A stretch of 64,000 nucleotides of DNA. It comes from Escherichia coli. GTDB taxonomy: Bacteria; Pseudomonadota; Gammaproteobacteria; Enterobacterales; Enterobacteriaceae. The stretch lies in assembly GCF_013122565.1 (NCBI RefSeq), contig NZ_CP053258.1; one strand, written 5' to 3'. Both the position numbers and the translations under genes were made by a program. Below the pieces are notes generated by a model. The model did no database searches. It was given only the letters and a program-made list of their open reading frames with translations, and was not told the DNA's origin. This document shows, piece after piece, positions 49,549 to 49,642 of the stretch (positions are counted from its first letter, which is position 1; every line of letters starts with the position of its first letter).

Positions 49549-49564
49549 GATAAAACGTTTTATC
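49549..49564. promoter_or_regulatory. MalI operator-like 16-bp perfect palindrome (malX side)
   Basis: GATAAAACGTTTTATC, perfect palindrome, in malX-malI divergent control region. Confidence 0.7.
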
Positions 49565-49626
49565 AAATTTTAGTGAGGCATAAATCACATTACGCAACGA
49601 TAATAGCGGGTATAAGATAAATAAAA

Positions 49627-49642
49627 GGTAAAACGTTTTATC
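49627..49642. promoter_or_regulatory. MalI operator-like palindrome (malI side)
   Basis: GGTAAAACGTTTTATC, 15/16 match to first site, about 30 nt upstream of malI ATG. Confidence 0.65.

What the first reader, a model, noticed from the sequence alone, without database searches (positions are those of the whole stretch)
49549..49642. Two MalI-type palindromic operators in the malI-malX divergent region
GATAAAACGTTTTATC (49549-49564, perfect palindrome) and GGTAAAACGTTTTATC (49627-49642) are 78 bp apart between the divergent malX and malI starts, consistent with dual repression of malXY and malI by MalI.
Basis: partly seen in the sequence, partly recalled or inferred. Interest (0 to 1): 0.2.

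Follow-up and report, generated by a model that had tools for sequence, protein, structure and literature searches.

The report
Known MalI operators at malX-malI promoters
The two 16-base palindromes are real and are the already published binding sites through which the E. coli MalI repressor shuts off the malXY operon and its own gene, so this is an ordinary, well-understood regulatory region.

Summary
GATAAAACGTTTTATC (49549-49564, perfect palindrome) and GGTAAAACGTTTTATC (49627-49642, one mismatch) are the only matches with up to 3 mismatches in the 64 kb window. They lie 78 bp apart between divergent malX (47906-49498, -) and malI (49673-50701, +). The window is E. coli-type DNA, collinear with K-12 MG1655, and this intergenic region differs from K-12 by one base outside both sites.

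[quoted passage not shown] Its oligonucleotides name GATAAAACGTTTTATC as "a MalI DNA site", and MalI:mCherry forms foci on arrays of that site in vivo. The primary mapping papers (Lloyd et al. 2008, 2010) were not held. As I recall them, they give operator and CRP positions that fit this sequence exactly.

New here is a phylogenetic footprint. All 80 Enterobacteriaceae species-level loci retrieved carry exactly two such sites, 78 or 79 bp apart. Variation is almost confined to the symmetric positions 2 and 15.

The most likely mechanism is two independent MalI dimers blocking RNA polymerase at each promoter, around one shared CRP site. Novelty: already known. Interest: low.

The parts
49549..49564 (.). 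malX-proximal MalI operator: GATAAAACGTTTTATC, a perfect 16-bp palindrome with a central CG
   Evidence: Sequence. It is identical to the published 'MalI DNA site' in PMC5543585 primers D71689/D71690. It is present in all 80 orthologous loci, with 14 of 16 positions invariant. Mean column identity is 0.97 against 0.62 for the adjacent malX 5' UTR.
49627..49642 (.). malI-proximal MalI operator: GGTAAAACGTTTTATC, with one departure from the palindrome at position 2
   Evidence: Sequence. It is present in all 80 orthologous loci. G at position 2 occurs in 11 of 80, and positions 2 and 15 are the tolerant symmetric pair. Mean column identity is 0.97 against 0.60 for the downstream malI leader.
49571..49592 (.). 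Single shared CRP site: TAGTGAGGCATAAATCACATTA, i.e. TGAGG-N6-TCACA centred at 49581.5
   Evidence: Read from the sequence. T49574, G49575, G49577 and TCACA 49585-49589 are invariant in the 80-sequence alignment, while the spacer is only 30-50% conserved. That pattern fits the 6-bp-spacer CRP register. malI and malX are listed as known CRP targets recovered by genomic SELEX (PMC3105977). The centre positions -41.5 (malX) and -43.5 (malI) are from my memory of Lloyd et al. 2008.
49547..49552 (-). Inferred malX promoter -10 hexamer (TATCTT on the - strand). It overlaps the left edge of the malX operator. The inferred transcript start is 49540 (-).
   Evidence: Inference from the sequence plus the remembered published numbering. 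AA at 49547-49548, just outside the operator, is invariant in 80 species. The strict sigma-70 consensus scan found nothing here, as expected for an activator-dependent promoter.
49611..49618 (+). Inferred malI promoter -10 region (overlapping TATAAG/TAAGAT). The inferred transcript start is 49625 (+), which places the malI operator at +3 to +18.
   Evidence: Inference. TATAA at 49611-49615 is at least 90% conserved in the 80-sequence alignment. The transcript start is from memory of Lloyd et al. 2008/2010 and was not tested here.
49673..50701 (+). malI: LacI/GalR-family repressor, 342 aa, autoregulated
   Evidence: NCBIfam NF007449 MalI, 669.9 bits against a cutoff of 310. Pfam LacI HTH at residues 8-53 and Peripla_BP_1 at 65-341. 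One residue differs from K-12 (I312T).
47906..49498 (-). malX: PTS maltose/glucose enzyme IIBC, 530 aa, first gene of the repressed operon
   Evidence: NCBIfam NF007509, 1117.7 bits. RefSeq annotation of the matching region.
46724..47896 (-). malY: PLP-dependent C-S lyase and antagonist of MalT, 390 aa, second gene of the operon
   Evidence: NCBIfam TIGR04350 PatB-family C-S lyase, 377.7 bits. RefSeq annotates it as malY.

Best explanation
These are the two natural operators of the LacI/GalR-family repressor MalI in the divergent malX-malI control region of E. coli. A MalI dimer binds each 16-bp palindrome through its N-terminal helix-turn-helix domains. The malX-proximal site (49549-49564) covers the spacer and the upstream part of the -10 hexamer of the CRP-dependent malX promoter, so bound MalI excludes RNA polymerase from malXY. 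The malI-proximal site (49627-49642) lies just downstream of the malI transcript start, so bound MalI blocks open-complex formation or promoter escape and gives negative autoregulation. A single CRP site centred at 49581.5 between the operators activates both promoters. The two operators act independently rather than through a loop. Shown here or in papers I could read: the sequences, their identity to the published MalI site, MalI recruitment to that site in vivo, derepression of malXY when malI is lost, and strong evolutionary conservation of both sites. Inferred or recalled: the exact transcript starts, the steric mechanism at each promoter, and the independence of the operators.
For: The sites exist, and only these two occur in the window. 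The flanking genes are malX-malY and malI. The intergenic region equals K-12 apart from one base outside the sites. [quoted passage not shown] A malI loss-of-function mutant shows 7.4-fold higher malX and 6.2-fold higher malY mRNA (PMC12089948). All 80 species-level loci from at least a dozen enterobacterial genera have exactly two sites with up to 2 mismatches. Spacing is 79 bp in 75 loci and 78 bp in 5, variation is almost only at the symmetric positions 2 and 15, and no further site occurs in 525 kb of flanks. Operator columns are 97% conserved against 60-72% for neighbouring non-coding DNA. [quoted passage not shown] The remembered published geometry is self-consistent on this sequence: malX +1 = 49540, malI +1 = 49625, starts 85 bp apart, CRP centre 49581.5.
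Against: Nothing contradicts it. The limits are these. The primary mapping papers (Lloyd et al. 2008, 2010; Reidl and Boos 1991) were not held, so operator positions relative to the transcript starts, and the independence of the two sites, rest on my memory. Transcript starts were not verified with data. The consensus promoter scan found no sigma-70 match, which is expected for CRP-dependent promoters but gives no positive support. [quoted passage not shown] That conflicts with the single shared CRP site and I did not resolve it. The physiological inducer of MalI is not known to me.
Confidence: 0.95

Rival explanations
1. The two sites work together. One MalI oligomer bridges both operators and loops the 78 bp between them, as with LacI or GalR, possibly in a joint complex with the CRP dimer bound in the middle, as with CytR-CRP.
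For: There are two near-identical operators at a spacing held to 78-79 bp across 80 species, with a CRP site between them.
Against: MalI (342 aa) aligns to LacI residues 2-325 of 360 and ends there, so it lacks the C-terminal tetramerisation helix. The alignment range is; the position of that helix in LacI is established knowledge. A centre-to-centre distance of 78-79 bp is 7.4-7.5 helical turns, which puts the sites on opposite faces of the DNA. The fixed spacing is explained more simply by two promoters sharing one CRP site. As I recall it, Lloyd et al. 2010 showed that each operator represses its own promoter without needing the other.
Confidence: 0.03
2. The palindromes are targets of another LacI-family protein that recognises an AAACGTTT core, for example PurR, whose gene is also in this window, rather than of MalI.
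For: The central AAACGTTT is shared with the PurR box (my own knowledge).
Against: Published work names this exact 16-mer as the MalI site and shows MalI recruitment to it. Structure-based energies separate MalI sites clearly from PurR cognate sites (PMC2577325). The sites co-occur with malI in all 80 loci.
Confidence: 0.01
3. The palindromes act as RNA or DNA hairpins, for example a 5' stem-loop on the malI mRNA, or they are chance AT-rich palindromes.
For: The malI-proximal site would be transcribed at +3 to +18 and can form a 6-bp stem.
Against: The hairpins are very weak, at -0.9 and -1.5 kcal/mol, and the malI leader as a whole folds no better than shuffles (z = -0.88). Substitutions in other species are one-sided (AAATCG, CGATTT, TACC, TAGC) with no compensatory partner. 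The malX-proximal copy lies upstream of its transcript start. Chance is excluded by the shuffles and by the conservation.
Confidence: 0.01

Closest known systems
MalI operators of the E. coli K-12 malX-malI divergent promoters (Lloyd, Godfrey and Busby 2010, FEMS Microbiol Lett 305:28; used as the MalO array in Sellars et al. 2017, PMC5543585)
   Same: Same genes, same organism group, and the same two 16-bp sequences at the same spacing. The whole intergenic region is identical to K-12 apart from one base at 49512.
   Different: Nothing of substance differs. This strain is 98.3-98.7% identical to K-12 across the window and carries MalI I312T and MalX I103V and Y310F.
LacI/GalR-family operators in general (PurR, GalR, CytR, RbsR, CcpA cre sites)
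   Same: Even-length palindrome with a central CG, bound by a dimer through the N-terminal HTH, located in the promoter of a sugar-uptake operon, with an autoregulated repressor gene next door (PMC4052901).
   Different: The half-site GATAAAAC is specific to MalI. Unlike LacI, MalI has no tetramerisation helix, so a LacI-style loop is not expected.
Divergent promoter pairs sharing one CRP site
   Same: One CRP site lies between two back-to-back promoters, and each promoter has its own specific repressor site (memory of Lloyd et al. 2008).
   Different: Here the same repressor acts on both sides. Also, PMC3105977 groups malI-malXY among the pairs regulated by different CRP molecules, which conflicts with the single-site description. 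I did not resolve this.

Membership tests
MalI operator (LacI/GalR-family operator) | Even-length palindrome of 16-22 bp with a central CG pair | tested here: met
   GATAAAAC|GTTTTATC is a perfect 16-bp palindrome with a central CG. The second site matches 15 of 16 positions. The rule is taken from PMC4052901.
MalI operator (LacI/GalR-family operator) | Sequence equals an experimentally used MalI binding site | tested here: met
   PMC5543585 supplementary primers D71689 and D71690 carry 'a MalI DNA site' GATAAAACGTTTTATC, and arrays of it recruit MalI:mCherry.
MalI operator (LacI/GalR-family operator) | Cognate LacI-family repressor gene and regulated operon lie adjacent, with the sites in the promoter region | tested here: met
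   malI and malXY flank the sites. The sites lie 31-46 bp upstream of the malI ATG and 51-66 bp upstream of the malX ATG.
MalI operator (LacI/GalR-family operator) | Conserved at orthologous loci (phylogenetic footprint) | tested here: met
   80 of 80 loci have both sites. Operators show 0.97 column identity against 0.60-0.72 for the flanks.
MalI operator (LacI/GalR-family operator) | MalI protein binds these sites and represses both promoters in this strain | not testable with these tools
   This needs EMSA, footprinting or reporter assays. It is published for K-12, whose sites are identical.
Class II CRP-dependent promoter (malX) | CRP site TGTGA-N6-TCACA centred near -41.5 from the transcript start | tested here: inconclusive
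   TGAGG-N6-TCACA matches 8 of 10 half-site bases, centred at 49581.5, and the key bases are invariant across species. The transcript start was not verified, and -41.5 is from memory.
LacI-type looping operator pair | Repressor has a C-terminal tetramerisation helix | tested here: not met
   MalI residues 5-340 of 342 align to LacI residues 2-325 of 360, so nothing corresponds to LacI's C-terminal helix.
LacI-type looping operator pair | Operators are separated by an integral number of helical turns | tested here: not met
   Spacing of 78 bp here and 79 bp in 75 of 80 species equals 7.4-7.5 turns at 10.5 bp per turn.

The most novel reading that the evidence does not exclude
The spacing of the two operators, held to 78-79 bp around the CRP site across Enterobacteriaceae, might reflect a higher-order MalI-CRP-MalI complex with CytR-like protein contacts, rather than two fully independent repressors. 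In that case CRP would modulate repression strength.
Probability: 0.04. Interest if true: 0.3.

Novelty: already known. Interest (0 to 1): 0.05.

Why it matters
It matters little as a discovery. The region is a textbook-style example of a local LacI-family repressor controlling a sugar PTS operon and its own gene from a compact divergent promoter pair with a shared CRP site. The practical value is as a positive control: the first-stage reader correctly recognised real, experimentally validated operators from raw sequence. The modest addition here is the 80-species footprint. It shows that both operators and their spacing are conserved across Enterobacteriaceae, and that positions 2 and 15 of the palindrome are the tolerant ones.

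Tried and rejected
1. I tried to read the primary papers: Lloyd et al. 2010 by DOI and PMID, Lloyd et al. 2008 by PMID, and Reidl and Boos 1991 by PMC id. None is held, so the published operator coordinates relative to the transcript starts are quoted from memory.

2. Searches for 'malX promoter' and related terms returned mostly Streptococcus papers or bare reference-list citations. PMC2859248, PMC4892627 and PMC6547410 contained only citations or unrelated matches.

3. The sigma-70 consensus and terminator scan of 49400-49760 found nothing. That is uninformative for activator-dependent promoters.

4. The RNA hairpin reading was rejected: weak energies and no covariation.

5. The looping reading was rejected: no tetramerisation helix and half-integral helical phasing.

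6. The window is not contig NZ_PTRE01000069 (locus L003). MalI is 100% identical, but MalX is only 99.2% identical and the coordinates do not match.

Full report
**Observation.** Reading 49300-49900 shows GATAAAACGTTTTATC at 49549-49564 and GGTAAAACGTTTTATC at 49627-49642, exactly as reported. The first is its own reverse complement. The second departs from the palindrome only at position 2. The repeat finder reports them independently as an 18-nt direct repeat, AAG[A/G]TAAAACGTTTTATC, with start-to-start spacing 78, and as two palindromes. A search allowing up to 3 mismatches finds only these two sites on both strands of the 64 kb window. Dinucleotide shuffles give a mean of 0.25 sites, and 1 of 100 shuffles reached two.

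**Context.**
- The ORF at 49673-50701 (+) is MalI: NCBIfam NF007449 at 669.9 bits, with a Pfam LacI HTH domain and a Peripla_BP_1 domain.
- The ORF at 47906-49498 (-) is the PTS IIBC protein MalX, at 1117.7 bits.
- The ORF at 46724-47896 (-) is a PatB-family C-S lyase, annotated malY in RefSeq.
- The 601 bases around the sites match 5413 of 5426 complete E. coli genomes, and the genes under the match are annotated malI and malX.
- The 111-bp core (49540-49650) is present in 5396 genomes, at 99% identity or more in 5242 of them.
- The whole window is collinear with K-12 MG1655 positions 1,684,856-1,748,948 in reverse orientation, at 98.3-98.7% identity.
- The malX-malI intergenic region is identical to K-12 except for G to A at 49512, which lies outside both sites.

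Results published for K-12 therefore apply directly.

**What is published.**
- Its supplementary oligonucleotide table gives "a MalI DNA site" as GATAAAACGTTTTATC, the exact 16-mer at 49549-49564. An array of 20 such sites gives MalI:mCherry foci in vivo, and no foci appear without the array.
- PMC12089948 shows that a malI loss-of-function allele raises malX mRNA 7.4-fold and malY mRNA 6.2-fold.
- malI and malX are listed as known CRP targets recovered by genomic SELEX (PMC3105977).
- The primary mapping papers (Lloyd et al. 2008, 2010; Reidl and Boos 1991) are not held.
- From my own memory, Lloyd et al. 2010 located the malX operator at -24 to -9 and the malI operator at +3 to +18. They showed that each acts independently of the other, with one CRP site at -41.5 (malX) and -43.5 (malI).
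- Mapped onto this sequence, those numbers give malX +1 at 49540 (-), malI +1 at 49625 (+), starts 85 bp apart, and a CRP centre at 49581.5. That centre is exactly the centre of TGAGG-N6-TCACA at 49574-49589. The remembered coordinates and the sequence are mutually consistent.

**Independent evidence produced here.** A protein-based scan of one genome per species returned 80 loci encoding MalI relatives at 69-100% identity. The genera include Escherichia, Citrobacter, Salmonella (subsp. arizonae), Enterobacter, Klebsiella, Raoultella, Kluyvera, Lelliottia, Leclercia, Trabulsiella, Pseudocitrobacter and others.
- In all 80 loci malX is divergent from malI.
- In all 80 loci the intergenic region holds exactly two sites within 2 mismatches of the palindrome. 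They are 79 bp apart in 75 loci and 78 bp apart in the 5 E. coli-type loci.
- Variation is almost confined to positions 2 and 15, which are symmetry mates. The G at position 2 of the window's second site is therefore at the tolerant position.
- No other site with up to 2 mismatches occurs in 525 kb of flanking DNA.
- In the alignment, operator columns are 97% identical against 60-72% for neighbouring non-coding DNA.
- T49574, G49575, G49577 and TCACA 49585-89 are invariant while the CRP spacer is variable. This supports the 6-bp-spacer CRP register.
- TATAA at 49611-15 and AA at 49547-48 are also conserved, which fits -10 elements for malI and malX respectively.

**Mechanism.** The best explanation is the published one. 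A MalI dimer at 49549-49564 overlaps the -10 region and spacer of the CRP-activated malX promoter and excludes RNA polymerase. A MalI dimer at 49627-49642 sits just downstream of the malI start and blocks initiation or promoter escape, which gives negative autoregulation.
- Shown by results or by papers I could read: the sequences, their identity to the MalI site, in vivo recruitment of MalI, derepression in malI mutants, and conservation.
- Inferred or remembered: the transcript starts, the steric details at each promoter, and the independence of the two operators.

**Rivals.**
- Looping or cooperative binding is unlikely. MalI aligns to LacI residues 2-325 of 360 and ends there, so it has no tetramerisation helix. 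Spacing of 78-79 bp is 7.4-7.5 helical turns.
- Binding by another LacI-family protein such as PurR is unlikely, given the direct MalI evidence and the energetic separation of MalI sites from PurR sites (PMC2577325).
- An RNA hairpin role is unlikely. The stems are worth only -0.9 to -1.5 kcal/mol, the malI leader folds no better than shuffles (z = -0.88), and substitutions in other species are one-sided.

[quoted passage not shown] They are the MalI operators themselves. RefSeq genome records carry no feature annotation at this spot ('none'), but the literature does describe it. Verdict: already known, low interest.

Noticed in passing
window 49512 (malX leader, - strand): This is the only difference from K-12 in the malX-malI intergenic region: G to A on the + strand. 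On the malX strand it changes ACG to ATG, 15 nt upstream of and in frame with the annotated malX ATG, just 5' of the GAGGAG Shine-Dalgarno sequence. It may be rare, because the best of 5413 E. coli matches to 49300-49900 is 99.7%, not 100%.
   Followed up: partly
window 39856-40278 (rsxC, - strand): A 96-bp tandem repeat, 4.4 copies at 90% matches, lies inside rsxC. The window carries one more 96-bp unit (32 codons) than K-12 MG1655.
   Followed up: partly
80 related loci L003-L082 compared with window 49616-49627: The operator spacing is 79 bp in 75 of 80 species and 78 bp only in the E. coli-type loci. The missing base lies between the conserved GTATAA and the malI operator, so the malI operator sits 1 bp closer to the -10 region in E. 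coli.
   Followed up: partly
window 11106-11496 (+): There is a full-length Rfam match to the enterobacterial sRNA STnc550 (396.5 bits). By the mapping onto K-12 it lies in the intergenic region next to purR.
   Followed up: no
window 2233-2514: Two tRNA genes on the - strand (2360-2433 and 2441-2514) map by collinearity to the K-12 tRNA-Val genes valV and valW. An Rfam match to 'HPnc0260 antisense RNA' (112 bits, + strand, 2233-2395) overlaps the first tRNA and is probably an artefact of that family containing tRNA-complementary sequence.
   Followed up: no
PMC3105977 compared with window 49571-49592: [quoted passage not shown] The Busby-laboratory description, as I recall it, and the conservation pattern here point to one shared CRP site. 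I saw no second conserved TGTGA/TCACA-like block in the alignment, but I did not test this formally.
   Followed up: partly
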